A stretch of DNA of 64,000 bases from Escherichia phage vB-Eco-KMB37, in the sequence record OR525700; one strand, given 5' to 3'. Below the pieces are notes generated by a model. That model made no database searches, was not told the origin of the DNA, and saw nothing but the letters and a program-made list of their open reading frames with translations. Position 1 is the first letter of the stretch, and each line of letters starts with the position of its first letter. A program made the position numbers and the translations under genes. Below, in pieces: positions 2,801 to 21,401 of the stretch.

Positions 2801-3376
2801 TTATTTCTCTTCGTCAAGAAGAATTTTTACTATTTGTTTTCTTCGCTTACTTACTGTACTTTCTGGTGAAATTCCGCGCTTCGTTAGCCAATTTTTATCC
2901 TTTTTAGACTGGCATAAAGCTATCGCTTCCTTCTCCGCTTTTGCTTCCCTGAATGTCATATCGTGCTTGTCAGCATAAGCCAGGATAGCGTTACACTGCT
3001 TACAAACTACACGCAGGTCGTCTTCTGTTACGTACAATAGGCGTAAAACAAAACTTGGGATATCTTCATAACAGGTTAATGTACCTGCTGCATTAATGTG
3101 GTCTACTTGAAAGTCTTTCATACCTCCTGTATGTCCACACAATTCACATTTACAATTCCAAACCTGTTTCGGTTTGCCTGTTTTCTTATCTAAAACTACA
3201 TTGCCATCTTTATCCAACCTATCGGCTTTAAATCGTACAGATTGGATCTTTTTTATCTTATTCGGGTGTCTCACCCATGCTTTCCTTAAGCAACCCCTTA
3301 AATATGTATAAAAGGCTGCTTGAGTTTTCCAAGGTGTTCCATCTCCCCAAATAACTTTAGGTTCTTTATTTTCCAA
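2801..3376 (-). CDS. HNH homing endonuclease
   Basis: CKCELCGH...DHINAAG...CKQCN His-Asn-His/zinc motif; free-standing between metabolic genes. Confidence 0.7.
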   Translation of the reverse strand: MENKEPKVIWGDGTPWKTQAAFYTYLRGCLRKAWVRHPNKIKKIQSVRFKADRLDKDGNVVLDKKTGKPKQVWNCKCELCGHTGGMKDFQVDHINAAGTLTCYEDIPSFVLRLLYVTEDDLRVVCKQCNAILAYADKHDMTFREAKAEKEAIALCQSKKDKNWLTKRGISPESTVSKRRKQIVKILLDEEK

Positions 3377-3985: not shown

Positions 3986-4946
3986 AAATTCCAATAACAG
4001 TGTTTACACGCTTCTCTTTGCTACGTAAATTAACACGTCCACGAGACAGGCTATTACATGATGTGCATCTTAGCACTTGGAATGTACTAACCGCTGTTGT
4101 GTAAACCTTACCAGGAACAACTTCAAGGTGCTCTTTACCGCAACGAGGACAACGAAGTTTTTCATCGTCATAGAATGCAGATACGTTAGGATGTTGTGGA
4201 ATCCATGCACGAAGTTTGATGTAAAGATCTCTAAGAGAAACAACATCACCATCGTTGTATGTTTGCATACGGAAGAAGGCATGTCTATCTCCTTCACAAC
4301 ATGCTTTCCACAAAGGAAAACCTTCATTATCAAGTTTAAAGTTTTCTGTATCAAAATACAGACACATTTCTTTAAGCGCATTAGAAGGTAGTGCAAACTG
4401 CTTCTTAGCTGCCTTGAGTGTATCAATTACAACATAATGTGATGGTGGCTCCATACCGTGAAAAGCAAAACGTTGGTTAATATAAGCCTTATCAAACTTA
4501 ATTCCGTTGTGCGCGATCACAATATCTGCATCGTCAAGCAAGTGCCAGAGATCTTGACATAATTCCCAATCATCTGTATGATCTATGTCAAACAAAGGGT
4601 AATTGCTAAGGTTCTTACCTTCTACTTCCCCTGTTTCTAAATCAGCAGATGAATAGGAAAGCAAGTAACCTCGACGAATAACTTGTTCAGGTGCAATAAA
4701 GGCTTTGAAACGTGAGAAGCTATACACAATCTCCGGTGCTGTCTCTACGTCAATAATTTTAATTACTGGCCCACCTTTATCTTGCGGAGCACCGCGATGT
4801 GGTGAATTTACACGAGCTAAGTAATCATTTACTGTGCTCTTCTTAGTAGAACTTCCCAACACCTCTTGTGCAATCTTACGCGAAGAATAACCTTGTGCTT
4901 TCATAGATACAATCAAGGCTTTCTGTTCGTCTGTTAATTTACTCAA
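3984..4946 (-). CDS. DEDD-family 3'-5' exonuclease with N-terminal HTH and C-terminal zinc ribbon
   Basis: IIDVETAPE (Exo I) and IAHNGIKFDKAYI (Exo II/III-like) motifs; N-terminal sigma-region-4-like HTH; CPRCG...CTSCN at C-terminus. Confidence 0.6.
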   Translation of the reverse strand: MSKLTDEQKALIVSMKAQGYSSRKIAQEVLGSSTKKSTVNDYLARVNSPHRGAPQDKGGPVIKIIDVETAPEIVYSFSRFKAFIAPEQVIRRGYLLSYSSADLETGEVEGKNLSNYPLFDIDHTDDWELCQDLWHLLDDADIVIAHNGIKFDKAYINQRFAFHGMEPPSHYVVIDTLKAAKKQFALPSNALKEMCLYFDTENFKLDNEGFPLWKACCEGDRHAFFRMQTYNDGDVVSLRDLYIKLRAWIPQHPNVSAFYDDEKLRCPRCGKEHLEVVPGKVYTTAVSTFQVLRCTSCNSLSRGRVNLRSKEKRVNTVIGI

Positions 4947-5977
4947 TGTTCCTCCTGCTCTGAAATATATGCTTGTAGCATACTTTCAAAAGTTGTTTCA
5001 TCATTCGCCCAACGTTTCATATATACCAACTGAAAAATTGTCTCTATCCATTCATCAGTTGTCATTTCTACTTCTTCACCATCCCAAGAAGTAAATTTAA
5101 CGCCGTCTGGGAACCATTCATAATACTGATCTTTAACTGTCTGAAAAAGTTCAGCCTGTGTTTTACATTTGGAAATAAGATTAAAGCAAGTAATATCTCC
5201 AAACTTAACATCGAAATCTTGGTAAGGTCGAATACTATCTGTCTTATCGCCCATTAGCATTTGATAAGCTAACCAGTAACTACCCCAACCCTTAACTTCT
5301 TTTTTCTTACCTTTTTCTACGATCCAGATATCACCGATAGATTCATCAATCAGAATAACACAAGGATTTTTATAAACACCATCCTCTTTATAAAAGTTAA
5401 AGAGTAAACTCGGTGTGTGTAAGCTATCTTTGTCGATAGATGCTACAATATGAGAAAACTTACCAGTTTCCTTGTAGGCTTTATACCCTGCATATCCATA
5501 GATTTCTAAAGCATCATCTGCCTCAATACCAGTAACAACGTCACCGTTATGTTTTTCAACTAGATAATCTTTAGTATCTGATAATTGGATTGGTCTTAAA
5601 TCTGATCGCTCTGATTTATATTCTTTTGGCATTTTGAAAGAATGCCGGAAGGTTTTTCCTACCCCGATGACACCGCAATACTTTTGAAGTTTTAGGTGAT
5701 CCACCATCTGGGTTATTTTTGTCTTTGCAGCTTGAAACGTAAAAGAAATATTCTCTGGGACTATTTGAACATCTTTTATTTCAAAATCTTCTTTGGAGAA
5801 CAACTTCTTACCAGCAGCTTCGCGTTGCGCGTTAAGTGCTCCTAACCATCCTCCAATATTTTTTGAAGATTTACCCCAAAAATCTGTTCTTGTTTCAAAC
5901 TCTTTTACATTACCGGAAGCCTTGTGTACAGCGTGGATTTTTCTTTGTTCTAAAGCTGAAGACGCTTGGAACGCCAC
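4943..5977 (-). CDS. Putative FEN-like 5'-3' exonuclease
   Basis: GIEADDALEIYGY and VASIDKDSL motifs resemble the Pol I 5'-nuclease GYEADD / SGDKD signatures. Confidence 0.45.
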   Translation of the reverse strand: MAFQASSALEQRKIHAVHKASGNVKEFETRTDFWGKSSKNIGGWLGALNAQREAAGKKLFSKEDFEIKDVQIVPENISFTFQAAKTKITQMVDHLKLQKYCGVIGVGKTFRHSFKMPKEYKSERSDLRPIQLSDTKDYLVEKHNGDVVTGIEADDALEIYGYAGYKAYKETGKFSHIVASIDKDSLHTPSLLFNFYKEDGVYKNPCVILIDESIGDIWIVEKGKKKEVKGWGSYWLAYQMLMGDKTDSIRPYQDFDVKFGDITCFNLISKCKTQAELFQTVKDQYYEWFPDGVKFTSWDGEEVEMTTDEWIETIFQLVYMKRWANDETTFESMLQAYISEQEEH

Positions 5978-7569: not shown

Positions 7570-8290
7570 AAGCAATGATTGCTGCGATATTAGGTTTAAC
7601 AAAGGTAGATGGCTTCATAATTTTACCTTTGTCATCAAAGAATACGTATACCTTTTGAACTTCGTTATATACAGCATGTACTCCAGTATAAGAACCTTCT
7701 GCACGATCTTTGCTTCGCATCTCGATAGCATCACACTCTTTTTCAAGAGCTTCAACAATATCCTTAGTTTCCCAAATAGCCAGGAGTTGCTTCTTGGTAG
7801 GATACTTGGACTCATTGCTATTCAACACTTCACGCATAACCTTCTTCTCGTTATAAACAGAACGTACCAAAGTATCTCGTGCCATACGTGTAAGTGTAAG
7901 AGACATTAGGGCAAATTGCAAGTCATTTTCTACCATTTTATCAAATTCAATGATAACATCGTAAATGTTCTCTGCCAGAACATCTCCTGTCGGCATTTCC
8001 AGAGCTTTATCAACACCTTCTTTACCAAAGAACATAAATGCCAGGTAGGATGCTACCACAAAAATATCTGCTGCTGCATCAAGTAATTCAACGTGATCAT
8101 TTTCCTGTGCTGCTGCTTGAAACTCTTTAAGTTCTTCTCGTACAAAAGAAAGTTGAGCTTCAAACATCTCTTGAGTAAATTCTGGGGTTACTCCACCACG
8201 TGCCTTAGCATTCCAAGCAACAATTTGATCGGCAGCTTTGATAAAGAAGCTATTGTCCACTTTTACTTGTTTGAAAAAATTCTCGATCAT
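7568..8290 (-). CDS. MazG-like nucleotide pyrophosphohydrolase domain protein
   Basis: REELKEF...ELLDAAADIFVVASY resembles the all-alpha MazG/dUTPase-like motif. Confidence 0.4.
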   Translation of the reverse strand: MIENFFKQVKVDNSFFIKAADQIVAWNAKARGGVTPEFTQEMFEAQLSFVREELKEFQAAAQENDHVELLDAAADIFVVASYLAFMFFGKEGVDKALEMPTGDVLAENIYDVIIEFDKMVENDLQFALMSLTLTRMARDTLVRSVYNEKKVMREVLNSNESKYPTKKQLLAIWETKDIVEALEKECDAIEMRSKDRAEGSYTGVHAVYNEVQKVYVFFDDKGKIMKPSTFVKPNIAAIIA

Positions 8291-8299
8291 TGTTTCTCC

Positions 8300-8479
8300 T
8301 TATTTAAAATATTGTTCTAACAAAACACTAATGCGAACTACTGATTCGCCCATATACGCCCCAGCACAGAGGAAAACAACAAATCTACAAAAATTGCAGT
8401 ACCATTTATCCACTGGAAACGAGGCTAACATTATAATTGCAATAGCAATTAACATCATAAGAACTGTTACTAATACCAT
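8300..8479 (-). CDS. Small membrane protein
   Basis: Hydrophobic stretch VLVTVLMMLIAIAIIMLASF; start taken at the internal Met to avoid overlap with the ligase gene. Confidence 0.3.
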   Translation of the reverse strand: MVLVTVLMMLIAIAIIMLASFPVDKWYCNFCRFVVFLCAGAYMGESVVRISVLLEQYFK

Positions 8480-8487
8480 ATTACCTC

Positions 8488-9651
8488 TTACTCTGCTGGT
8501 TCCCAAGTACCTGGAATCATCTTACGTACACGTACCCCAACAGGCTTAGTAGGAATACCTTCGTCTGAAAATTCTTCGTACTCTATTTCAACAAATTGAC
8601 CAATAAGTGTCAAAGCATTTTCTTCTTTACGATAGTTAATGGTTTCATCTGAATCCTTACGCATCAGGAATTCGACTACTTTACCATTTTCCATCTCTCC
8701 TGTCAATACCCCGTCACCATTTTTATCACGCTTTGCACTTACCACTTTAACTTCAAGCGTCTGACGTGGTTTACGTTTAATAACATCATAAGAACGTTTA
8801 TCGAATTCGTAAACACCTTTTGCGTTACGATACACCACACCTTCCGCTTTCTCACGTAGGGCTTTTGCATAGAAAGCATCAAACTGTTCTTGGTTTTCAA
8901 TGTACTCTGTATGTACTACACAAATAAGTTCATCTAAACCCTTATCTTCAACAACTTCTTTTAGAGCAGCCAAAACTTGAACCCTCTTCTCAAATGGTAC
9001 AGATGGCACGGGAACATCATATACATAGTATTTAAGAAGCGGAGTGTTAGCATTATGCTTTTTCCACGCACTATTAATTTGTTGAAGGCTAAGGATACCC
9101 AAACCAGCAAAAACTTCACCGTCAAGAGGATGACCAACTACTTCTTTAATGAAGGTTGGGATTTCTTCCCAGTGAGGTGGAAGTTTATATACCTCCCCAG
9201 CTTTAGATAAACATTCACCTTGCATGTTAATCATTGAACGTAGACCATTCAATTTATATTGTGCATAACCAGGGAACAAAACACGATCAGCATAATCTTT
9301 ATAATCCTGACATTTCATGGGTGTGGAAGGAACATGGTTTTCAGCTTCCTCTTTTGTTTTATAGTACCCATTCTTAATTTGCTTTGTCCATTTGGCAAGA
9401 GCTTCTATTTCAGCTTGTTCTTCTGCTGTTGTTTCATTTGAGCGACCAATATTTTTAGGTTCTGCCGTATAAGATTTGCTAGTGATCTTTCCACCTAATT
9501 GACCATGAGCAACAGTTACAACACTACCTTCGGTATAGACTGACCACTGTCTAATTTTACCTGTAGAAGTTTTACCATATAATGTAGGATTAGTTTGTTT
9601 CATCTTTAACCTCCAGTTGCGAAAGAACCCATTTAGCCATTTCAATTTCAC
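8488..9651 (-). CDS. ATP-dependent DNA ligase
   Basis: Motif I QYKLNGLR (KxNG), plus EG-VV-type and K-x-K-type downstream motifs; 387 aa. Confidence 0.8.
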   Translation of the reverse strand: MKLKWLNGFFRNWRLKMKQTNPTLYGKTSTGKIRQWSVYTEGSVVTVAHGQLGGKITSKSYTAEPKNIGRSNETTAEEQAEIEALAKWTKQIKNGYYKTKEEAENHVPSTPMKCQDYKDYADRVLFPGYAQYKLNGLRSMINMQGECLSKAGEVYKLPPHWEEIPTFIKEVVGHPLDGEVFAGLGILSLQQINSAWKKHNANTPLLKYYVYDVPVPSVPFEKRVQVLAALKEVVEDKGLDELICVVHTEYIENQEQFDAFYAKALREKAEGVVYRNAKGVYEFDKRSYDVIKRKPRQTLEVKVVSAKRDKNGDGVLTGEMENGKVVEFLMRKDSDETINYRKEENALTLIGQFVEIEYEEFSDEGIPTKPVGVRVRKMIPGTWEPAE

Positions 9652-9793
9652 CGTGTAGTCTGCCTAGTTCATAGGCATCATCAATATTACCACCAGTGTA
9701 ATCATCCACCATAAAGTAAGGATCTTCACTACTGTTAGGCGCGTTTGCAATTCTCGTTAGTTCTTCAATAAATGTCATAGTTAACCTTACCAA
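9590..9793 (-). CDS. Hypothetical small acidic protein
   Basis: 67 aa, rich in D/E. Confidence 0.35.
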   Translation of the reverse strand: MVRLTMTFIEELTRIANAPNSSEDPYFMVDDYTGGNIDDAYELGRLHGEIEMAKWVLSQLEVKDETN

Positions 9794-10011
9794 TTATACA
9801 CAAGAGTTTGAATTTCTTCCATCAAATCTTCAAGATCTGTATCAACATATTCAGAAGATGTTGCCATAAAGTATGTAATCATTGTGAACCCTTCCGAAGA
9901 AAGGGCATCAAGGATATCATTAAACATATCTTCCATTTCAGTATTCTCACCAAATGAAAATAACATTTGTTGATCTTCGCTTACACCTTTAACATAGATA
10001 GCTGTGCTCAT
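9787..10011 (-). CDS. Hypothetical small acidic protein
   Basis: 74 aa, rich in D/E. Confidence 0.35.
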   Translation of the reverse strand: MSTAIYVKGVSEDQQMLFSFGENTEMEDMFNDILDALSSEGFTMITYFMATSSEYVDTDLEDLMEEIQTLVYNW

Positions 10012-10014
10012 ATA

Positions 10015-10335
10015 TTAATCCTTAAGACGTTCATTTAAATCTGTAATAACATCATTTAAATCTTCACATTCCAGTGTTAACTCTGAAACTTGTTCATTCA
10101 AACAAGAAACTTCTTCGTTTAGATCTGAAATAATGTTTTCTAATGAATCTACTTGGTCATCATATGCACGTTTTGTTTCTTCAAGTTCTTCCGTAAGATC
10201 ATTAATCAAACGGAGCAAAGATAAGATATAGCCGTCTCCTGTCTCGTTCCTCCACTCACTTCCGTAGCGATAAATAATAATTTCACCATCATCGACTACT
10301 GTAAAATACTTACCTTCACCAGAATAAATTTCCAT
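10015..10335 (-). CDS. Highly acidic coiled-coil protein (candidate DNA mimic / anti-defence)
   Basis: 106 aa, roughly 30 percent D+E, heptad-like LxxL/E-rich C-terminal half. Confidence 0.4.
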   Translation of the reverse strand: MEIYSGEGKYFTVVDDGEIIIYRYGSEWRNETGDGYILSLLRLINDLTEELEETKRAYDDQVDSLENIISDLNEEVSCLNEQVSELTLECEDLNDVITDLNERLKD

Positions 10336-10343
10336 ACACTCTC

Positions 10344-10748
10344 CTATTGTAGCTTAAGTGAACTGCGAAGACGTTTCTCTTGCTGATCACGAATATGTTG
10401 TGGAACCTCATGAATTGAGTCGTTACCGTGCCTATTTTCAACAACTAAAGAGATAACTTGATAACCAAACTCTTCAGCAAGAGTTAAATAAGGTTTAAGT
10501 TCTTTCTCTGTGGTTGAAGTGTTAGAGACAATAATCTTTTTAATATTAGATGCCATAGCATCACGAACAATACTCTGACACCATGCGTGGGCTTTACCTA
10601 CATTTTCTGGCTTCCAATCGTAAACACCACTTTCTGTGTAATGGTATTGATCTGCCTCACAGATAGGCCAATAACCTTCAGAAATAATTTCTGCTACTGT
10701 AGATTTACCTGCACCTGAAACACCACGTAAAATGATAAGTTGTTTCAT
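10344..10748 (-). CDS. P-loop polynucleotide kinase-like protein
   Basis: ILRGVSGAGKSTVA Walker A in a 134-aa protein, resembling the T4 Pnk kinase domain. Confidence 0.55.
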   Translation of the reverse strand: MKQLIILRGVSGAGKSTVAEIISEGYWPICEADQYHYTESGVYDWKPENVGKAHAWCQSIVRDAMASNIKKIIVSNTSTTEKELKPYLTLAEEFGYQVISLVVENRHGNDSIHEVPQHIRDQQEKRLRSSLKLQ

Positions 10749-11681
10749 TTAGCCTCCAAAGAAGTTTTCTATTTCTTTACGTCGCTCTTGTGGATCTAGA
10801 GCAGCCCATTGAACCTTCGTAAAGTTATTTCTAAGCCATTCTAGCAAAGTATAATATTCTTCGTCAACAATTTGTTTAGCATTATTTGGGTTGTCCCAAA
10901 TCATATCCCACTTCTTATTGCCACCACGCATAAGGAACTTCTTAGCAAGATAGTATGGTGACTTAATCTTTAAGAGTAAGTTAAACGGGTAGTTTGTTTC
11001 ACGAACAACAAAGCCTTCGTGTCTACAATGTTTAGACATTTCAACAACATCTGAAAATTTAATCATCGGATAAACTTCAGGACGTTTAAATTTTGTAATA
11101 GATGCAATCCCATCAAGAACACCTTCAGGTAACATGAAACTTGTCCCATCAAGATTTTGAATTCTTGCTCCAATTAAGTATGCGCCTGGTTCTTCTTCGA
11201 CAATATGTGGATCAGAAGGATCACAGATTTCAAAAAGGAAAGTTGCTTTTGCACTTTCTGTCCACTTAATGAAATACTCTATGTCATCACATTCGGAAAC
11301 AATACGGTTCTTGGCAATAGTTGCAAAGTCTGACTCTAGGCTCCCTGTTGTTGATACAACAAGTTGCCCTTTGTACACACCTACAGATGCCATAAAACCG
11401 TTTACTTTACGGACAGCATCTACAATTTCGTCTGCTGGAAGATCTGTACCATTTTCAAAACGATTAAAAATTTTAGTAAAAGGCCAAATAACAACATTGT
11501 CTTCTGAGTCAACAACCAACCCACGACAATCTAAAAGTCGTTTGTCAACGTTCCACAAGTTATCCCAGAATACATTGTTTTTGTATTTAAGTACAGCAAG
11601 ACCAGCATACTCTCCAGATTTAACTTCTTTTTTATGCACTAAACCTTTTGCAATCAGGTCATCACAATTGAACTTAGCCAC
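10749..11681 (-). CDS. Putative RNA ligase (covalent nucleotidyltransferase)
   Basis: Motif I RKVNGFMA (KxNG), motif IV-like EGFVVRE, motif V-like LLLKIKSPYY; distinct from the DNA ligase at 8488..9651. Confidence 0.5.
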   Translation of the reverse strand: MAKFNCDDLIAKGLVHKKEVKSGEYAGLAVLKYKNNVFWDNLWNVDKRLLDCRGLVVDSEDNVVIWPFTKIFNRFENGTDLPADEIVDAVRKVNGFMASVGVYKGQLVVSTTGSLESDFATIAKNRIVSECDDIEYFIKWTESAKATFLFEICDPSDPHIVEEEPGAYLIGARIQNLDGTSFMLPEGVLDGIASITKFKRPEVYPMIKFSDVVEMSKHCRHEGFVVRETNYPFNLLLKIKSPYYLAKKFLMRGGNKKWDMIWDNPNNAKQIVDEEYYTLLEWLRNNFTKVQWAALDPQERRKEIENFFGG

Positions 11682-11682
11682 C

Positions 11683-12234
11683 TTAATCTCCTTTGATTAT
11701 CTTATGATGATCTACAACAACAATATCACGCTTATCCATAATAGAGATGATTTCGTCAAAATGCAAGATTTTCCCGTGTGCATCCCAACCAACATCCAAC
11801 ATTTTCCCATACAAATGATCAGGGAATGATCCGTGAGAGTGTCCGTGTAGCATGATTGATCCATGCCCTTGTTTATTCCAGGCAGCCATAGGGTAATGAC
11901 TTAAGACGAAGAACAGCTTCTGATATTTCACTTCGTCATAATACACAACTTCTCCATACTCTGCAAGCACTTTTCTGTGTTTGCTGTAATCATGGTTCCC
12001 AACACAGTAAGTAATATCCCCTTGGAGACGGGAAGCAATCTTACGGGTATCTTCTTCAGTCCCGAAACAGAAGTCCCCAAGATGGTACATCTTTACTCCT
12101 GGTGTTGTGGCACATTTATTCCATGCTTCGATCAGTGCTTCTGTCATATGCTCCATATCTTCCCACGGACGATATTCAGGAGCAAACTCTCGGATACGTT
12201 TGTGCATAAAATGCAAATCACTTGTAATAAACAT
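11683..12234 (-). CDS. Calcineurin-like metallophosphoesterase
   Basis: DLHFMH, GDFCFG, GNHD, and HGHSHG motifs (DxH...GDxxD...GNH[DE]...GH.H). Confidence 0.7.
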   Translation of the reverse strand: MFITSDLHFMHKRIREFAPEYRPWEDMEHMTEALIEAWNKCATTPGVKMYHLGDFCFGTEEDTRKIASRLQGDITYCVGNHDYSKHRKVLAEYGEVVYYDEVKYQKLFFVLSHYPMAAWNKQGHGSIMLHGHSHGSFPDHLYGKMLDVGWDAHGKILHFDEIISIMDKRDIVVVDHHKIIKGD

Positions 12235-15141: not shown

Positions 15142-16035
15142 ATGAAAGTTAGTATTCTACATGGTGTTGACTGTTATGTTACTGATGTAGACGTTAAAGT
15201 CTTTACATTCTCTGGTGGAGAACAACATGTTCAACTAGACACGAATCTATCAGGTTTCAATCATGCTACAGACAGAATCTTACTCTCTTTAGAAGTAAGA
15301 TCTGCTAAAGACTTGATGACTTTGGTTATGACTAAGAATGCATTGGACAATATGCTATATCATAAACCATATTGTGTTGATTTACTCATGTTGTATGTGC
15401 CGTATGCACGACAAGACAGAGTGTGTGAGCCTGGGGAAGCATTCGGAGTTAAAGCCTTTGCTTCTATAATTAATTCATTAAATTTCTCACGTGTTATCGT
15501 TGCTGATCCACATAGTGATGTTACTCCGGCAGTGTTTGACAGACTCTGTGTAATACCTCAAGAAGAGATTGCTTACGAAACTTTAAAGTGGAAGTTACGT
15601 ATGGAGAATTTTGCTCTTGTTAGTCCTGATGGTGGTGCTCTTAAGAAAATATTTAAATTATCTAAGAAAATGTCTTTAGATGTGTTCTGTGCAGAGAAGG
15701 TTAGAGATACTGCAACAGGTGCTATTGTTCGTACAGACATTTCTGTACAGGATTTCAATAAGCGTAACCTGATGATCGTAGATGATATCTGTGACGGCGG
15801 TAGAACTTTTATTGAATTGGCTAAAGTGCTACGTGCTCGTAACGCAGGTAAGATTGAGTTATATGTTACACACGGTATCTTTTCTAAAGGTCTTAAAGAG
15901 TTAAGTGAGCACTTTGACTGCATTCATTCTCTTAATGTGTGGGAAGATAACATCCAAGAAGATTCCGGTGTTCTTGTTAAGAATCAGTCAGATTTGCAAC
16001 AACAAATTGTATCTCCATACGTGTGGAATTTTTAA
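15142..16035 (+). CDS. Ribose-phosphate pyrophosphokinase homolog (Prs-like; possibly an ADP-ribose pyrophosphate synthetase of a NAD+ reconstitution pathway)
   Basis: YARQDR and PRPP-binding MIVDDICDGGRT motifs align with E. coli Prs (YARQDRR, VLVDDMIDTGGT). Confidence 0.8.
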   Translation: MKVSILHGVDCYVTDVDVKVFTFSGGEQHVQLDTNLSGFNHATDRILLSLEVRSAKDLMTLVMTKNALDNMLYHKPYCVDLLMLYVPYARQDRVCEPGEAFGVKAFASIINSLNFSRVIVADPHSDVTPAVFDRLCVIPQEEIAYETLKWKLRMENFALVSPDGGALKKIFKLSKKMSLDVFCAEKVRDTATGAIVRTDISVQDFNKRNLMIVDDICDGGRTFIELAKVLRARNAGKIELYVTHGIFSKGLKELSEHFDCIHSLNVWEDNIQEDSGVLVKNQSDLQQQIVSPYVWNF

Positions 16036-16045
16036 ATAATAAGTG

Positions 16046-16074
16046 TTGACAATAGGGAGTATGCTTAGTAAGAT
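16046..16074 (+). promoter_or_regulatory. Sigma70-like promoter
   Basis: TTGACA-N17-TAAGAT upstream of the NAMPT-like gene. Confidence 0.5.
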
Positions 16075-16106
16075 ACTCCCACACTAACAAACAAGGAGAC
16101 ATAACT

Positions 16107-17840
16107 ATGAATATTTTTGCACCTTTTGCTACTGATTGGTATAAACCTGGTCACAAGCAGATGTACAACCAAAATACAAAACTCATTTTCTCTAATTTAA
16201 CTCCTCGTAATGATAAAAACTTTGCACACTATGCAGATCGTGAAGCACGTGGTGTAATTGTTTTAGGTATTCGTCGAGCAGTTACTGATGCTCTTGTAAC
16301 TATGTGGGATAGCTTCTTTAAAATGTCTCGTAGTGCAGCAGTAAATAAATTTTATCGTATGTCTAAAAATGCATTAGGTGCTTCTGCTCCTTCTGCTGAA
16401 TGTTGGGGAGAATTGCACGATTTAGGTTATCTTCCGCTGGAAGTTCGATCTCTGCCAGAAGGTGTTTTGTGTCCTATTGGTGTTCCTGTGTTTACTGTGC
16501 ATAATACTTTAGAAAAATTCTTTTGGTTAACTAACTATGTGGAAACACTATTGTCAGATGAAACTTGGAAGACAATGACTAATGCTACAGCAGCTTTTCA
16601 GTATAAGCGTATTGCTATGGCATATGCGATGGCAACGTGTGATAATATTGATCATGTTAACTTCCAGTGTCATGATTTTAGCCTACGTGGTTTAAGTAAT
16701 ATCGAAGATGGTTATAAGAGTGGTATCGCTCATTTGGCATCTTTCACAGGAACAGATAACATTCTGGCTATTGAGACTGTGCATGATTATTATGGTATTG
16801 ATTATGATCAGTTTGTTGCAGGTTCTATTCCGGCAACAGAACATTCAGTAGCAACGACTAACATTGGAGCTATTGTTGAAGATCTGAAGAAACATTTCCC
16901 ACATCTTAAAGATGATGTTGATGGGCTTCGTTATGTAGCAGAGAAAGAGTTTCTTCGCCGCTATATTGAAGAAATTGTTCCAGAAGGTTTTTGTTCATAT
17001 GTAGCAGATTCTTATGACTACTGGGCTGTCTTGACTCGCATTCTGGTCGAGTTGAAAGATTCCATTATGTCACGAAATGGTCGTCTTGTTATTCGTCCAG
17101 ATTCAGGAGATCCGGTTAAAGTTGTTGCAGGATACAATGTTGAATCTTTTGATAACTATGAAGACCTTTTAAATAATGGTATTGCTACAGCCACTGAAGT
17201 AGTTCATTTGGCTGATGTTAATAAGTATTACAATGTTCTTCAGGATTGCAGTGTTGCTGATTGTATTGATGAAACTTATGAGATTCCTTATTGTGAAGCA
17301 GTAGGTTCTATTCAAATCCTTTGGGAAGTGTTTGGTGGTACTATCAACCGAAAAGGCTACAAGGTTCTTGATCAGCACATCGGTATGATTTATGGTGATT
17401 CTATTACTGTTGAACGAGAACACGAAATCTTACGCCGACTGAAGAAGAAAGGTTTTGCAGCTTCCAATATTGTATTTGGTGTTGGTAGTTATACTTATCA
17501 GTTCAATACACGAGATACTTTTGGTTTTGCTGTTAAAGCAACAGGTAGTATCATCGGTGAACACGAAATTTTGGTAAGTAAGGAGCCTAAAACTGATCCT
17601 GGTAAACGTTCTGCAAAAGGTTTTATTAAGGTTGTTAAGGATACAAACGGTAAAATTTCTCTCGTGGATAATCTTTCTTTTAAAGATATTCAAGATGAAG
17701 ACAATGAGTTAAAAGTTATCTTCAGGGATGGTACGGTTATTACACCACAAGTAGAAGGACGTGATGAAACATTTACGGATATCCGCAATCGTGTTGATGT
17801 AGAGGTTCTTCGTACTATGGGAACCATCCAGGTTGACTAA
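16107..17840 (+). CDS. Nicotinamide phosphoribosyltransferase family protein (NadV/NAMPT-like; possibly Namat)
   Basis: 577 aa; N-terminal DWYKPGHKQMY and overall NAMPT-like architecture; adjacent to the Prs-like gene. Confidence 0.8.
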   Translation: MNIFAPFATDWYKPGHKQMYNQNTKLIFSNLTPRNDKNFAHYADREARGVIVLGIRRAVTDALVTMWDSFFKMSRSAAVNKFYRMSKNALGASAPSAECWGELHDLGYLPLEVRSLPEGVLCPIGVPVFTVHNTLEKFFWLTNYVETLLSDETWKTMTNATAAFQYKRIAMAYAMATCDNIDHVNFQCHDFSLRGLSNIEDGYKSGIAHLASFTGTDNILAIETVHDYYGIDYDQFVAGSIPATEHSVATTNIGAIVEDLKKHFPHLKDDVDGLRYVAEKEFLRRYIEEIVPEGFCSYVADSYDYWAVLTRILVELKDSIMSRNGRLVIRPDSGDPVKVVAGYNVESFDNYEDLLNNGIATATEVVHLADVNKYYNVLQDCSVADCIDETYEIPYCEAVGSIQILWEVFGGTINRKGYKVLDQHIGMIYGDSITVEREHEILRRLKKKGFAASNIVFGVGSYTYQFNTRDTFGFAVKATGSIIGEHEILVSKEPKTDPGKRSAKGFIKVVKDTNGKISLVDNLSFKDIQDEDNELKVIFRDGTVITPQVEGRDETFTDIRNRVDVEVLRTMGTIQVD

Positions 17841-18146: not shown

Positions 18147-18257
18147 ATGTCTACAGAAATTATTTTTGGCTTATCTGTTTTTATTGCTATTGTATCTTTT
18201 GTATGCGGTTATACACTAGGTTACAGATCAAGAAAAAATATTGTAAAAACTAGTTGA
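18147..18257 (+). CDS. Small hydrophobic peptide (36 aa)
   Basis: AAGGAAACA RBS then ATG; single TM-like segment GLSVFIAIVSFVCGY; below the ORF-track length cutoff. Confidence 0.3.
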   Translation: MSTEIIFGLSVFIAIVSFVCGYTLGYRSRKNIVKTS

Positions 18258-18283
18258 CAACATAGCTAGTTATTTGCTAAGAT
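18254..18283 (+). promoter_or_regulatory. Sigma70-like promoter
   Basis: TTGACA-N18-TAAGAT. Confidence 0.5.
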
Positions 18284-18580: not shown

Positions 18581-18587
18581 TATTCAA

Positions 18588-18663
18588 GGTTCCATAGCTC
18601 ACTGACGAAAGCGCACACCTCATAAGTGTCGAGGGCAGGGATTGTAACCCTGGGGAACCACCA
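18588..18663 (+). tRNA. tRNA-Met (anticodon CAT)
   Basis: 76 nt incl. CCA; acceptor GGTTCCA/GGGAACC, anticodon loop CTCATAA; T-loop atypical (ATTGTAA). Confidence 0.6.
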
Positions 18664-18694: not shown

Positions 18695-18780
18695 GCAAGT
18701 GTGGTGGAATTGGTGATACACATTGTGCTTAAAACGCAACGCTTAAATGATTGAGGGTTCGAATCCCTCCACTTGCACCA
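18695..18780 (+). tRNA. tRNA-Leu (anticodon TAA), type II
   Basis: Acceptor GCAAGTG/CACTTGC, loop CTTAAAA, long variable arm, T-arm GAGGG-TTCGAAT-CCCTC, CCA encoded. Confidence 0.7.
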
Positions 18781-18782
18781 AC

Positions 18783-18890
18783 GCCTAGTAGGGTATTTGG
18801 TAATTCCGAGGCCATCAAAGCCTGAAAAATATGTTAGACCGTTTTGTCTAACTAAATACGAAATATGGTTCGATTCCATAACTAGGCTCC
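18783..18890 (+). tRNA. Atypical tRNA-like element (about 107 nt)
   Basis: Perfect 7-bp acceptor pairing GCCTAGT/ACTAGGC and T-arm TATGG-TTCGATT-CCATA, but about 32 nt too long, with an extra 7-bp hairpin GTTAGAC/GTCTAAC; anticodon not resolved. Confidence 0.3.
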
Positions 18891-18923
18891 CGATTTAAAT
18901 AGTAATTTTTTAATAAAAATATC

Positions 18924-18952
18924 TTGACATTTACTTAGTTTTTTGTTATAGT
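18924..18952 (+). promoter_or_regulatory. Sigma70-like promoter
   Basis: TTGACA-N17-TATAGT. Confidence 0.55.
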
Positions 18953-18963
18953 CATTATGAAAA

Positions 18964-19045
18964 CGGGGTGTATCTCACCTGACTTCTAATCAGGCGTTAA
19001 CCGAGTAATTGGAGTATGCAGGTTCGAATCCTGTCACCCCGGCCA
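18964..19045 (+). tRNA. Atypical tRNA-like element (anticodon-like loop TCT, Arg-like)
   Basis: Perfect acceptor CGGGGTG/CACCCCG, stem-loop CCTGA-CTTCTAA-TCAGG, T-arm GCAGG-TTCGAAT-CCTGT, CCA; no canonical D-arm and a 24-nt insert before the T-arm. Confidence 0.35.
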
Positions 19046-19108: not shown

Positions 19109-19198
19109 GGAAGGTAGGGCGCAGCGGTGCGCAACCAGGTTTGAACCCTGGCCCATTGTAGCGATACGGTGATGGTTCGACTCCATTATCTTCCTCCA
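19109..19198 (+). tRNA. tRNA-Ser (anticodon TGA), type II
   Basis: Acceptor GGAAGGT/ATCTTCC, anticodon arm CCAGG-TTTGAAC-CCTGG, long variable arm, CCA. Confidence 0.65.
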
Positions 19199-21256: not shown

Positions 21257-21332
21257 ATAAATACCTCCCTTCTGGTGTAATGATTAAATTACATTGACAC
21301 TTCAAGGAACTCATAGCCGGGTAGATTTAAAA

Positions 21333-21397
21333 GAGTATGGTACTCAATATGGCTCCAAACCATAGATCAAGGGGTTCGATTCCTCACCTTGCTGCCA
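21333..21397 (+). tRNA. Possible tRNA-Trp (anticodon CCA), 5' boundary uncertain
   Basis: Anticodon arm TATGG-CTCCAAA-CCATA and T-loop TTCGATT plus CCA are clear; no acceptable 5' acceptor strand found with a normal D-arm. Confidence 0.3.
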
Positions 21398-21401
21398 ATA
21401 T

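What the first reader, a model, noticed from the sequence alone, without database searches (positions are those of the whole stretch)
18783..18890. tRNA-like element with perfect acceptor and T arms but a 107-nt body
GCCTAGT/ACTAGGC acceptor and TATGG-TTCGATT-CCATA T-arm are textbook, yet the core is about 32 nt too long even for a type II tRNA and carries an extra 7-bp hairpin. The only anticodon-like loop (CATCAAA) would read TCA (opal). Could be an interrupted tRNA, a suppressor, or a minihelix decoy for tRNA-targeting enzymes.
Basis: seen in the sequence. Interest (0 to 1): 0.55.

Follow-up and report, generated by a model that had tools for sequence, protein, structure and literature searches.

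The report
Conserved non-decoding tRNA-shaped phage RNA
This is a real, conserved 100-110-nt RNA that folds like a tRNA but has a shortened, non-standard "anticodon" arm and a large extra domain; about 200 E. coli, Klebsiella, Salmonella, Cronobacter and Erwinia phage genome records carry it unnamed or misnamed, and it is most likely a tRNA mimic rather than a stop-codon suppressor.

Summary
Window 18783-18890 (+) has a 7-bp acceptor stem, a canonical T arm, a D arm, a short anticodon-like hairpin (loop CAUCAAA) and an extra 7-bp hairpin flanked by A-rich linkers. It directly follows tRNA-Leu in the tRNA cluster of a phi92-like (Justusliebigvirus) phage.

It belongs to an undescribed RNA family found in about 200 phage records: Justusliebigvirus, four Vequintavirinae genera and one Schitoviridae phage. 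No copy was found in 185,579 bacterial and archaeal species genomes.

Covariation supports the fold strongly: 93.8% of cells pair against 32-44% in slid controls, and 19 of 28 pairs show double changes. The tertiary elbow pair G19:C56 switches to U19:A56.

The opal-suppressor reading is poorly supported. The arm is always 15-16 nt rather than 17, and position 33 is A or C. Most members have 6-nt loops, and UGA stops are not avoided in UCA-type phages.

The tRNA core and linkers are frozen, while the extra hairpin and two loop bases turn over faster than the flanking spacers.

Best reading: a tRNA-processed, non-decoding tRNA mimic that engages a tRNA-binding factor, possibly a tRNA-cleaving defence. 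That function is inferred, not shown. The closest known kind is the T5 RNA1/RNA2 and T4 rnaC stable tRNA-like RNAs, whose functions are also unknown.

The parts
18783..18789 (+). Acceptor stem, 5' strand (GCCUAGU). The predicted RNase P site is immediately 5' of G18783, 2 nt after the CCA of tRNA-Leu.
   Evidence: Pairs with 18881-18887. All 7 pairs are kept in 21 of 21 sequences, and 3 pairs show double changes. It abuts the upstream tRNA in nearly all clades.
18790..18791 (+). Connector A8-G9. A8 is invariant in the family, where canonical tRNAs have U8.
   Evidence: Alignments A3 and A4. The same A8-G9 occurs in this phage's tRNA-Ser(UGA).
18792..18807 (+). D arm, GGUAUU-UGGU-AAUUCC. It can be read as 4 bp plus an 8-nt loop, or as 6 bp plus a 4-nt loop (tRNA-Sec-like). 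It contains G18 and G19.
   Evidence: Three of the four inner pairs covary. Minimum-energy folds predict the 6-bp/4-nt form in 23 of 26 members; the window's clade has one U.U mismatch.
18809..18823 (+). Anticodon-like arm: 4-bp stem AGGC/GCCU with the 7-nt loop CAUCAAA (18813-18819). It is 15 nt long instead of the canonical 17.
   Evidence: Stem pairs 27:42 and 30:39 covary. The loop is identical in Justusliebigvirus, Henunavirus and UTK0002, but is C-N-N-C-C-A or closed in the other clades.
18824..18832 (+). 5' linker GAAAAAUAU. The GAAAA part is near-invariant in the family.
   Evidence: Alignments A3 and A4.
18833..18852 (+). Extra (variable-region) hairpin: 7 bp plus the 6-nt loop CGUUUU. 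This is the fast-evolving, cassette-like part.
   Evidence: All 26 members form a hairpin here, and all 6 scored pairs show double changes. At least six unrelated sequence alleles exist. The hairpin was replaced between loci that are 98-99% identical in their flanks.
18853..18863 (+). 3' linker UAAAUACGAAA. AAUAC is invariant, and most clades read AAUACAUAG.
   Evidence: Alignments A3 and A4.
18864..18880 (+). T arm UAUGG-UUCGAUU-CCAUA, with a canonical T loop. C56 (18871) pairs with G19 (18800).
   Evidence: All 5 pairs are kept in every sequence, and 3 covary. The tertiary 19:56 pair is G:C in 12 sequences and U:A in 9, and is never broken.
18881..18891 (+). Acceptor stem 3' strand (ACUAGGC), discriminator U (18888), then CCC. 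Most relatives encode U-CCA.
18695..18780 (+). tRNA-Leu(UAA), the upstream member of the same predicted transcript.
   Evidence: ARAGORN and Rfam, 57.1 bits.
18254..18283 (+). Promoter-like site (TTGACA-18-TAAGAT). It probably drives the 88-aa ORF, the Met-like tRNA, tRNA-Leu and the element.
   Evidence: Consensus scan only. Not evidence of function.
18924..18952 (+). Promoter-like site (TTGACA-17-TATAGT) that starts the next unit, so the element is the last RNA of its own unit.
   Evidence: Consensus scan, 11 of 12 matches.

Best explanation
The element is the gene for a stable, non-decoding tRNA mimic.

**Shown here:**
- It folds into a tRNA-type cloverleaf with an intact D-loop/T-loop elbow.
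- It carries a shortened anticodon-like arm.
- Its variable region is enlarged: a hairpin between two conserved A-rich single strands.
- It belongs to a family confined to lytic enterobacterial phages.

**Inferred from position and anatomy:**
- It is transcribed with the upstream tRNAs.
- RNase P releases it at G18783.
- It is trimmed at the 3' end and completed to U73-CCA by the host CCA-adding enzyme, like a tRNA.

**Inferred, not shown:**
- It does not read codons.
- It uses its tRNA shape to occupy a tRNA-binding host factor. The most likely target is a tRNA-cleaving or tRNA-modifying anti-phage system.
- The frozen core and linkers provide recognition.
- The fast-changing extra hairpin and loop positions 33/34 are the surfaces under an arms race, since these are the two sites where known tRNA nucleases cut.
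For: **Fold**
- 93.8% of pair cells are paired, against 32-44% for slid controls.
- 19 of 28 pairs show double changes, and 0 of 500 shuffles reach the observed score.
- The elbow pair 19:56 is G:C in 12 sequences and U:A in 9.
- Alignment-free folding of all 26 distinct members recovers the acceptor, T arm and extra hairpin in 26 of 26, and the D and anticodon-like arms in 23 of 26.

**Distribution**
- 30 Justusliebigvirus records plus Henunavirus and one Ithacavirus.
- Mydovirus and Seunavirus.
- About 120 Vequintavirus records.
- None in 185,579 bacterial and archaeal species genomes with two signature patterns.

**tRNA-type maturation**
- It starts 2 nt after the CCA of an upstream tRNA in most clades.
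- It ends in U-CCA in most members.

**Non-decoding**
- The arm is 15-16 nt in every member.
- Position 33 is A or C outside the rV5 type.
- 6-nt loops occur in 18 of 26 sequences.
- One member would have A34.
- UGA is not avoided as a stop, and there are no readthrough extensions.

**Arms-race signature**
- L021 versus L027: flanks 98-99% identical, core 100%, variable region 63%.
- L032 versus L034: flanks 95% and 91%, core 100%, variable region 70%, and the loop also differs.

**Context**
- Septu and retron-Eco7 cut the variable arm of tRNA-Tyr. T5 tRNA-Tyr is reported to resist cleavage through its distinctive variable loop, and phage tRNA-Tyr is suggested to act as a decoy or supplement (PMC13096335).
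- Schlafen, PARIS and PrrC-type systems cut anticodon arms (PMC13056530).
- NAD-salvage genes lie directly upstream.
Against: - There is no expression, processing or binding data. Every functional step is inferred.
- Fast turnover of the hairpin and loop could reflect relaxed constraint plus recombination rather than selection.
- A simple substrate decoy would have to compete with about 10^5 cellular tRNAs, so it would need to be a tight-binding inhibitor. Nothing here shows that.
- The strict conservation of CAUCAAA across three clades, and of C-C-A in the 6-nt loops, shows the loop is not free to drift. A pure strut would not need that.
- No partner protein gene co-occurs nearby.
- The elbow covariation may be a single evolutionary event.
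- Alignment A4 was fitted to the model, although the core columns are identical in the MAFFT alignment A3.
Confidence: 0.4

Rival explanations
1. It is an active opal (UGA) suppressor tRNA in the UCA-type clades (Justusliebigvirus, Henunavirus, UTK0002). It would be charged through its long variable arm (Ser) or through U73/G1:C72/C2:G71 (Gly), and would read UGA at a low level.
For: - The 7-nt loop C-A-U-C-A-A-A resembles tRNA-Sec (CUUCAAA) and tRNA-Trp (CUCCAAA). It is identical across three clades whose stems covary.
- The A36-A37-A38 context is present.
- The tRNA-Sec-like 6-bp/4-nt D arm and the long variable arm are present.
- U73-CCA is encoded in Henunavirus and UTK0002.
- Some depositors annotate it tRNA-sup(tca).
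- In the window, UGA stops are followed by another stop within 2-21 codons (median 3), against a median of 8.5 for UAA.
Against: - A33 replaces U33.
- The anticodon stem has only 4 bp.
- Relatives have 6-nt or closed loops while the rest of the RNA is conserved.
- UGA ends 13-14% of long ORFs in the window and 20-33% in Hena1, which is not lower than in rV5 at 3-11%.
- The near-stop pattern is not reproduced in Hena1.
- Long ORFs are intact under the standard code.
- Rfam tRNA and tRNA-Sec models give no hit at E<=10 in the window.
Confidence: 0.12
2. It is an aminoacylatable tRNA-like RNA that works off the ribosome. Examples would be a substrate or trap for enzymes or toxins that act on aminoacyl-tRNA or on the CCA end. 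Its identity would be set by the discriminator, the first acceptor pairs and the loop.
For: - G1:C72 and C2:G71 are invariant while pairs 3-5 covary.
- The 6-nt loops all read N-C-C at the positions aligned to 34-36 (UCC, GCC, ACC), mostly with U73. From established knowledge, this resembles the E. coli tRNA-Gly identity set (U73, G1:C72, C2:G71, C35, C36).
- The rV5 type combines UUU with A73, the tRNA-Lys set.
Against: - The coupling is not strict. C73 occurs with CAUCCA (SPLA5a), and C or U with UAU (TH18, Av-05).
- Pair 3:70 is C:G, A:U or U:A, not the G3:C70 of tRNA-Gly.
- The register of a 6-nt loop is ambiguous. The same bases can be read as a displayed N-C-C-A.
- The rV5 type does not encode CCA.
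- Charging cannot be tested with these tools.
Confidence: 0.12
3. It is a decaying tRNA duplicate (pseudo-tRNA), perhaps derived from the phage's class II tRNA-Ser(UGA). It would be kept only as a cis-acting processing unit for the tRNA precursor and have no trans function.
For: - It shares A8-G9, U73 and an extended D stem with the phage tRNA-Ser(UGA).
- T5 tRNA-Ser1 is the best non-family hit of the model at 29 bits.
- The same cluster holds other degenerate tRNA-like genes.
- The anticodon arm looks degenerate.
Against: - The non-tRNA linkers (GAAAA, AAUACAUAG) are among the most conserved positions across five or more genera that are otherwise only 70-80% identical.
- Length is held at 100 or 108-110 nt.
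- All helices are maintained by compensation.
- It was acquired by an unrelated Schitoviridae phage.
- Any ordinary tRNA could serve as a processing unit.
Confidence: 0.12
4. The extra hairpin plus the A-run is an intrinsic terminator for the minus strand that happens to lie inside a tRNA-like gene.
For: The scan reports a terminator-like site on the minus strand: stem 18852-18833 followed by ATATTTTTC.
Against: - One such site is what shuffles give by chance (mean 0.9).
- All neighbouring genes and tRNAs are on the plus strand, so nothing needs terminating.
- In other clades the run is only UAUUUUC, and the hairpin can be as weak as 3 bp.
- It does not explain the conserved 3' linker or the cloverleaf.
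Confidence: 0.03

Closest known systems
Phage T5 RNA1 (144 nt) and RNA2 (125 nt), annotated 'tRNA-like stable RNA with unknown functions' (NC_005859)
   Same: - Encoded inside a lytic coliphage tRNA cluster, abutting tRNAs.
- Acceptor-like stem, D arm and canonical T arm (GGUUCRAnUCC).
- An enlarged body with an extra hairpin.
- Function unknown.
   Different: - No detectable homology: the family model scores none of the T5 stable RNAs at E<1 with filters off.
- Different sizes.
- The T5 RNAs enlarge the anticodon-side domain, whereas this family shortens that arm and enlarges the variable region.
Phage T4 rnaC (species 1 RNA, 139 nt) and rnaD (species 2 RNA, 119 nt)
   Same: - Small stable RNAs directly next to tRNA-Arg in the T4 tRNA cluster.
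- rnaC has the same local layout: AAAAAUAU, then a 7-10-bp hairpin with a 6-nt loop, then a short A-rich linker, then a canonical T arm.
   Different: - The model gives rnaC only 11.3 bits (E about 0.1), below ordinary T4 tRNAs.
- rnaC lacks a clean 7-bp acceptor stem and a tRNA-like D arm.
- rnaD has no T arm.
Bacterial tRNA-Sec (Rfam RF01852)
   Same: - A possible 6-bp D stem with a 4-nt loop.
- A long variable arm.
- The loop C-N-U-C-A-A-A with a UCA triplet in three clades.
- Weak model hits of 23-27 bits in Mydovirus and Seunavirus members.
   Different: - 7/5 rather than 8/5 acceptor/T helices.
- U73 rather than G73.
- A33.
- A 4-bp anticodon stem.
- Long conserved single-stranded linkers around the extra arm.
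- All scores are far below the 47-bit threshold, and there is no hit in the window.
Class II tRNA-Ser(UGA) of the same phages and of T5
   Same: - A8-G9, discriminator U73, an extended D stem with a small loop, a long variable arm and a similar T arm.
- The likely evolutionary source.
   Different: - tRNA-Ser has a 5-bp anticodon stem and a normal 7-nt loop with U33.
- It has no long linkers, is 90 nt long, and is called by ARAGORN (and annotated as tRNA-Ser in relatives); Rfam gives it only a sub-threshold tRNA-Sec hit (35.3 bits).
Phage tRNAs that counter tRNA-cleaving defences (T5 and T6 tRNA-Tyr against retron-Eco7 and Septu; PMC13096335, PMC11555353)
   Same: - Encoded in phage tRNA clusters.
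- The variable arm is the contested surface.
- A decoy or supplement role has been proposed.
   Different: - Those are functional decoding tRNAs with experimental evidence.
- This RNA is unlikely to decode, and no defence system has been linked to it.

Membership tests
Canonical elongator tRNA (Rfam RF00005) | 7-bp acceptor stem and 5-bp T stem with a T loop of type UUCRAnU | tested here: met
   All pairs are kept in 21 of 21 sequences. The sequence shows this directly.
Canonical elongator tRNA (Rfam RF00005) | D arm with G18-G19 contacting the T loop (G19:C56) | tested here: met
   The 19:56 pair is G:C in 12 sequences and U:A in 9, always paired.
Canonical elongator tRNA (Rfam RF00005) | 5-bp anticodon stem and a 7-nt loop with U33 and a purine at 37 | tested here: not met
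   The window has a 4-bp stem and the loop CAUCAAA with A33. The arm is 15-16 nt in all 26 members.
Canonical elongator tRNA (Rfam RF00005) | Score at or above the family gathering threshold (29 bits), or a call by ARAGORN | tested here: not met
   There is no hit at E<=10 in the window and no ARAGORN call. Only the 100-nt rV5-type relatives pass, at 35.5 and 33.1 bits.
Opal suppressor tRNA | UCA anticodon in a decoding-competent anticodon arm | tested here: inconclusive
   The UCA triplet is centred in a 7-nt loop, but with A33 and a 4-bp stem. Decoding competence is not testable here.
Opal suppressor tRNA | Anticodon conserved among orthologues | tested here: not met
   CAUCAAA occurs in only 7 of 26 distinct sequences. 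The others have C-N-N-C-C-A or closed loops.
Opal suppressor tRNA | Genome shows UGA avoidance, readthrough extensions or UGA recoding | tested here: not met
   The UGA share of stops is 13-14% in the window and 20-33% in Hena1, against 3-11% in rV5. There are no long extensions after UGA.
tRNA-Sec (RF01852) | 13-bp acceptor/T helix (8/5 in bacteria) | tested here: not met
   The arrangement is 7/5. A8 cannot pair with position 65 (A.A in the window, A.C elsewhere).
tRNA-Sec (RF01852) | 6-bp D stem with a 4-nt loop, and a long extra arm | tested here: inconclusive
   Folding predicts this in 23 of 26 members. The two extra U-A pairs never vary, so covariation says nothing either way.
tRNA-Sec (RF01852) | G73 discriminator and a model score of at least 47 bits | tested here: not met
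   The discriminator is U73. The best family scores are 23-27 bits, and the window has none.
T4 rnaC / T5 RNA1-RNA2 (phage stable tRNA-like RNAs) | Encoded within a phage tRNA cluster with tRNA-like ends, and oversized for a tRNA | tested here: met
T4 rnaC / T5 RNA1-RNA2 (phage stable tRNA-like RNAs) | Sequence and structure homology to those RNAs | tested here: not met
   Model R1 with filters off gives rnaC 11.3 bits (E about 0.1) and no T5 stable RNA at E<1.
T4 rnaC / T5 RNA1-RNA2 (phage stable tRNA-like RNAs) | Accumulates as a stable RNA in infected cells | not testable with these tools
   No expression data are available.
Y RNA-like (YrlA) and the tmRNA tRNA-like domain | Match to the Rfam models | tested here: not met
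   No hit on the element at E<=10. The only YrlA and tmRNA_permuted hits lie over neighbouring tRNAs.

The most novel reading that the evidence does not exclude
The family is a dedicated RNA inhibitor or bait for host tRNA-targeting immunity.

- It would be a tRNA-shaped molecule that no longer decodes.
- Its invariant core and A-rich linkers would lock onto a tRNA-cleaving or tRNA-modifying defence effector.
- Its cassette-like extra hairpin and loop positions 33/34 would diversify in an arms race.

If so, the long-unexplained stable tRNA-like RNAs of T4 and T5 would be members of the same functional class, an RNA-based anti-defence.
Probability: 0.25. Interest if true: 0.8.

Novelty: new member of a known kind. 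Interest (0 to 1): 0.55.

Why it matters
Phage tRNA clusters have held oversized, stable tRNA-like RNAs of unknown function since the T4 and T5 work of the 1970s and 1980s. This family offers three things that help.

- **A comparative handle.** About 200 genome records in at least six genera give a well-resolved fold. The alignment separates frozen parts (core and linkers) from fast-evolving parts (extra hairpin and two loop bases). This suggests where a partner binds and gives mutants to test.
- **Timeliness.** Several newly described defences (PARIS, retron-Eco7, Septu, Schlafen) act by cutting tRNAs, and phage tRNAs are emerging as counter-measures.
- **Annotation.** The gene is currently missed, or called tRNA-Lys, tRNA-TERM/suppressor, tRNA-OTHER or a tiny ORF. 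That distorts tRNA counts and suggests stop-codon suppression for which there is no evidence.

Tried and rejected
1. **Window-type signature scans.** Scans of viral, genome and metagenome collections returned only the same clades plus four chance matches. One viral scan was wasted on a pattern with the wrong spacing.
2. **Homology to T4 rnaC/rnaD and the T5 stable RNAs.** Not supported by the covariance model.
3. **sRNA-like seed role for the conserved linkers.** Their complements are not enriched in the window: 8 against 3.5 expected (one of the 8 is the element itself), and 1 against 1.9.
4. **Intramolecular pairing of the linkers with the D arm.** GUAUUU/AAAUAC pairs only in the window's clade and is not conserved.
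5. **Kissing between the extra-hairpin loop and the anticodon-like loop.** Four base pairs are possible in one allele only, so this was rejected.
6. **Small ORF.** Some records annotate one, but there is no conserved reading frame, and the substitution pattern is compensatory base-pairing.
7. **Neighbouring protein partner.** Pfam finds only NAD-salvage enzymes and the terminase.
8. **Strict coupling of anticodon and discriminator (Gly or Lys identity).** Weakened when more members were added.
9. **Literature.** Searches found no description of this family. One query was too loose to be informative and one failed on term length.

Full report
**Where it is**

The window matches phi92-like E. 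coli myoviruses of the genus Justusliebigvirus. It is 99.7% identical to phage inny over 1 kb. Positions 18.58-21.5 kb hold a tRNA cluster in which ARAGORN finds 15 tRNAs. The finding starts 2 nt after the CCA of tRNA-Leu(UAA) at 18695-18780. A consensus promoter follows it 33 nt downstream. ARAGORN does not call it, and neither does Rfam at the gathering threshold or at E<=10. The related records leave it blank or place a tiny ORF on it.

The acceptor stem, T arm, extra 7-bp hairpin and CATCAAA loop are exactly as described. There is also a D arm at 18792-18807. The element is about 20 nt longer than the class II tRNAs of this phage, and about 32 nt longer than class I tRNAs. On its own the sequence folds with z = -3.0.

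**It is one member of a family**

BLAST from the element and then from its divergent relatives gave these members:

| Group | Evidence |
|---|---|
| 30 Justusliebigvirus records | |
| Erwinia Henunavirus, annotated 'tRNA-sup(tca)' | |
| One Salmonella Schitoviridae phage (UTK0002) | |
| Mydovirus and Seunavirus phages of Klebsiella, Raoultella, Proteus, Enterobacter, Cronobacter and Salmonella | |
| About 120 Vequintavirus (rV5-like) records with a 100-nt version | |

The rV5-like copies are annotated as tRNA-Lys, tRNA-OTHER, tRNA-TERM, tRNA-???(atcc) or nothing. Two signature patterns found no copy in 185,579 bacterial and archaeal species genomes. Metagenome and IMG/VR scans added only phage contigs. 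I collected 26 distinct sequences.

**The fold is real and tRNA-like**

I built a covariance model from 20 sequences and used it to re-align 21. On that alignment:

- 93.8% of pair cells are standard pairs, against 32-44% when the 3' partners are slid by 1-3 columns.
- 19 of 28 pairs have changes on both sides.
- No shuffle out of 500 reaches the observed score.
- Every helix has compensatory pairs.
- The D-loop base equivalent to G19 and the T-loop base equivalent to C56 change together. They are G:C in 12 sequences and U:A in 9, and never unpaired. So the L-shape elbow is conserved.

Two cautions apply. This alignment was fitted to the model, although the core columns are the same in the plain MAFFT alignment. 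The elbow switch may also be a single evolutionary event.

Folding each of the 26 sequences on its own gives the acceptor stem, T arm and extra hairpin in all 26. It gives the D and anticodon-like arms in 23. The exceptions are the window's clade, whose D stem has one U.U mismatch. The energy model prefers a 6-bp D stem with a 4-nt loop, as in tRNA-Sec. This explains the sub-threshold tRNA-Sec hits in relatives.

**What is frozen and what moves**

Invariant or nearly invariant positions are:

- G1:C72, C2:G71 and A8 (canonical tRNAs have U8);
- UUUG in the D loop;
- GAAAA after the anticodon-like arm;
- AAUAC(AUAG) before the T stem;
- the T arm.

The anticodon-like arm is 15-16 nt in every member, never 17. 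It takes three forms: 4 bp with CAUCAAA; 5 bp with a 6-nt loop C-[A/C]-[U/G/A]-C-C-A; or, in the rV5 type, AGGAU-UUUUA-AUCCU, which can close further.

The extra hairpin exists in at least six unrelated sequence versions, and all of them pair. Between loci whose 400-nt flanks are 98-99% identical and whose RNA core is 100% identical, the variable region is only 63% identical (L021 versus L027). L032 versus L034 shows the same pattern, and there the loop differs too. So the hairpin, and two loop bases, turn over faster than the neighbouring spacers.

**Suppressor test**

The UCA triplet sits in a loop that resembles those of tRNA-Sec and tRNA-Trp. That loop is strictly conserved in three clades, so this reading deserved a fair test. 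The evidence against it is as follows:

- A33 and a 4-bp stem.
- The triplet is lost in most of the family while everything else is kept.
- One member would have A34.
- UGA ends 13-14% of long ORFs in the window and 20-33% in Hena1, both UCA-type, against 3-11% in rV5.
- No long in-frame extensions follow UGA.

The short distance to the next stop after UGA in the window (median 3 codons, n = 9) is not reproduced in Hena1. I rate an active suppressor at about 0.12.

**Origin and relatives**

The element shares A8-G9, U73 and the extended D stem with this phage's own class II tRNA-Ser(UGA). T5 tRNA-Ser1(UGA) is the best non-family hit of the model. A tRNA-Ser-type ancestor is therefore plausible.

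The T4 and T5 records annotate oversized stable RNAs of unknown function in their tRNA clusters. T5 RNA1 and RNA2, and T4 rnaC, have the same general build. None of them scores significantly with the model. This is therefore a new family of a known, unexplained kind.

**How it most likely works**

- *Shown:* the fold, the distribution, and the pattern of constraint.
- *Inferred from position and ends:* co-transcription with the upstream tRNAs, RNase P cleavage at G18783, and 3' trimming with CCA completion.
- *Inferred from anatomy:* it does not decode.
- *Inferred from context only:* it occupies a tRNA-binding host factor.

I favour a tRNA-targeting defence effector as that factor. The two fast-moving sites are the sites such nucleases cut. 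Septu and retron-Eco7 cut the variable arm of tRNA-Tyr (PMC13096335). Schlafen cuts the anticodon arm (PMC13056530), as, from general knowledge, do PARIS and PrrC.

The conserved C-C-A or UCAAA in the loop, and the invariant first two acceptor pairs, leave room for a chargeable RNA. The loops and discriminators resemble the Gly and Lys identity sets, but the coupling is not strict.

No partner gene lies nearby, the linker complements are not enriched in the genome, and no paper in the library describes the family.

**Verdict**

This is a genuine, conserved, inconsistently annotated tRNA-shaped RNA. The suppressor label is probably wrong. Its function is open, with a tRNA-mimic or anti-defence role the best-supported guess at moderate confidence.

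Noticed in passing
window 18964-19045 (+): A tRNA-like gene with its own strong consensus promoter (18924-18952). It has a 7-bp acceptor stem, a normal T arm, the anticodon loop CUUCUAA (UCU, Arg) and G73-CCA. The D arm is replaced by about 4 nt, and there is a 20-nt variable region. Rfam tRNA gives 38.6 bits and ARAGORN misses it. Relatives annotate it tRNA-Undet or tRNA-OTHER.
   Followed up: partly
window 18586-18662 (+): A Met-like tRNA (loop CUCAUAA) with an aberrant T loop (AUUGUAA) and an encoded ACCA end. It is annotated tRNA-Met in relatives but is missed here by both ARAGORN and Rfam.
   Followed up: no
window 21316-21399 (+): An unannotated, degenerate tRNA-Trp-like gene between tRNA-Met and tRNA-Ile. 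Its anticodon arm is UAUGG-CUCCAAA-CCAUA, its T loop is GGUUCGAUUCC, it ends in CCA, and its acceptor stem is mismatched. A TTGACA promoter-like hexamer lies just upstream. It gives only a weak hit to my model (14.4 bits) and no Rfam hit at E<=0.1.
   Followed up: partly
window 19109-19198 (+): The phage tRNA-Ser(UGA) has A8, a U73 discriminator and an extended D stem with a 4-nt loop. It aligns to Rfam's tRNA-Sec model at 35.3 bits, below the threshold. The same is seen in rV5-like phages (40.2 bits) and in T5 tRNA-Ser1.
   Followed up: partly
window 15142-17840 (+): Two NAD-salvage genes lie directly upstream of the tRNA cluster: a PRPP-synthetase-like protein (297 aa) and a NAMPT/NAPRTase-family protein (577 aa). 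Hena1 carries PnuC and NMN adenylyltransferase genes. From general knowledge, such pathways can counter NAD-depleting defences.
   Followed up: no
L040 (T5, NC_005859) 8285-11950 and L039 (T4) 4909-5172: T5 annotates eight stable RNAs of unknown function in its tRNA region. T4 annotates rnaC and rnaD. T5 RNA1 and RNA2 and T4 rnaC fold as oversized tRNA-like molecules.
   Followed up: partly
Phage records MG065646, MG065652, MG065658 and others (hits H151-H162): About 18 records named 'Campylobacter phage' (about 135-141 kb) carry the rV5-type element at 93% identity to E. coli Vequintavirus phages. This suggests they are rV5-like coliphages or are mislabelled.
   Followed up: no
L047 (Hena1) 3167-3253: Hena1 annotates an 87-nt tRNA-Trp, which is unusually long for a class I tRNA. 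It may be another non-canonical tRNA in these clusters.
   Followed up: no
L018 (Ro1) 804-1196: In Raoultella phage Ro1 a 130-aa ORF is annotated between tRNA-Thr and the element, where related phages have a further tRNA directly abutting it. The ACCAAT junction before the element is retained.
   Followed up: no
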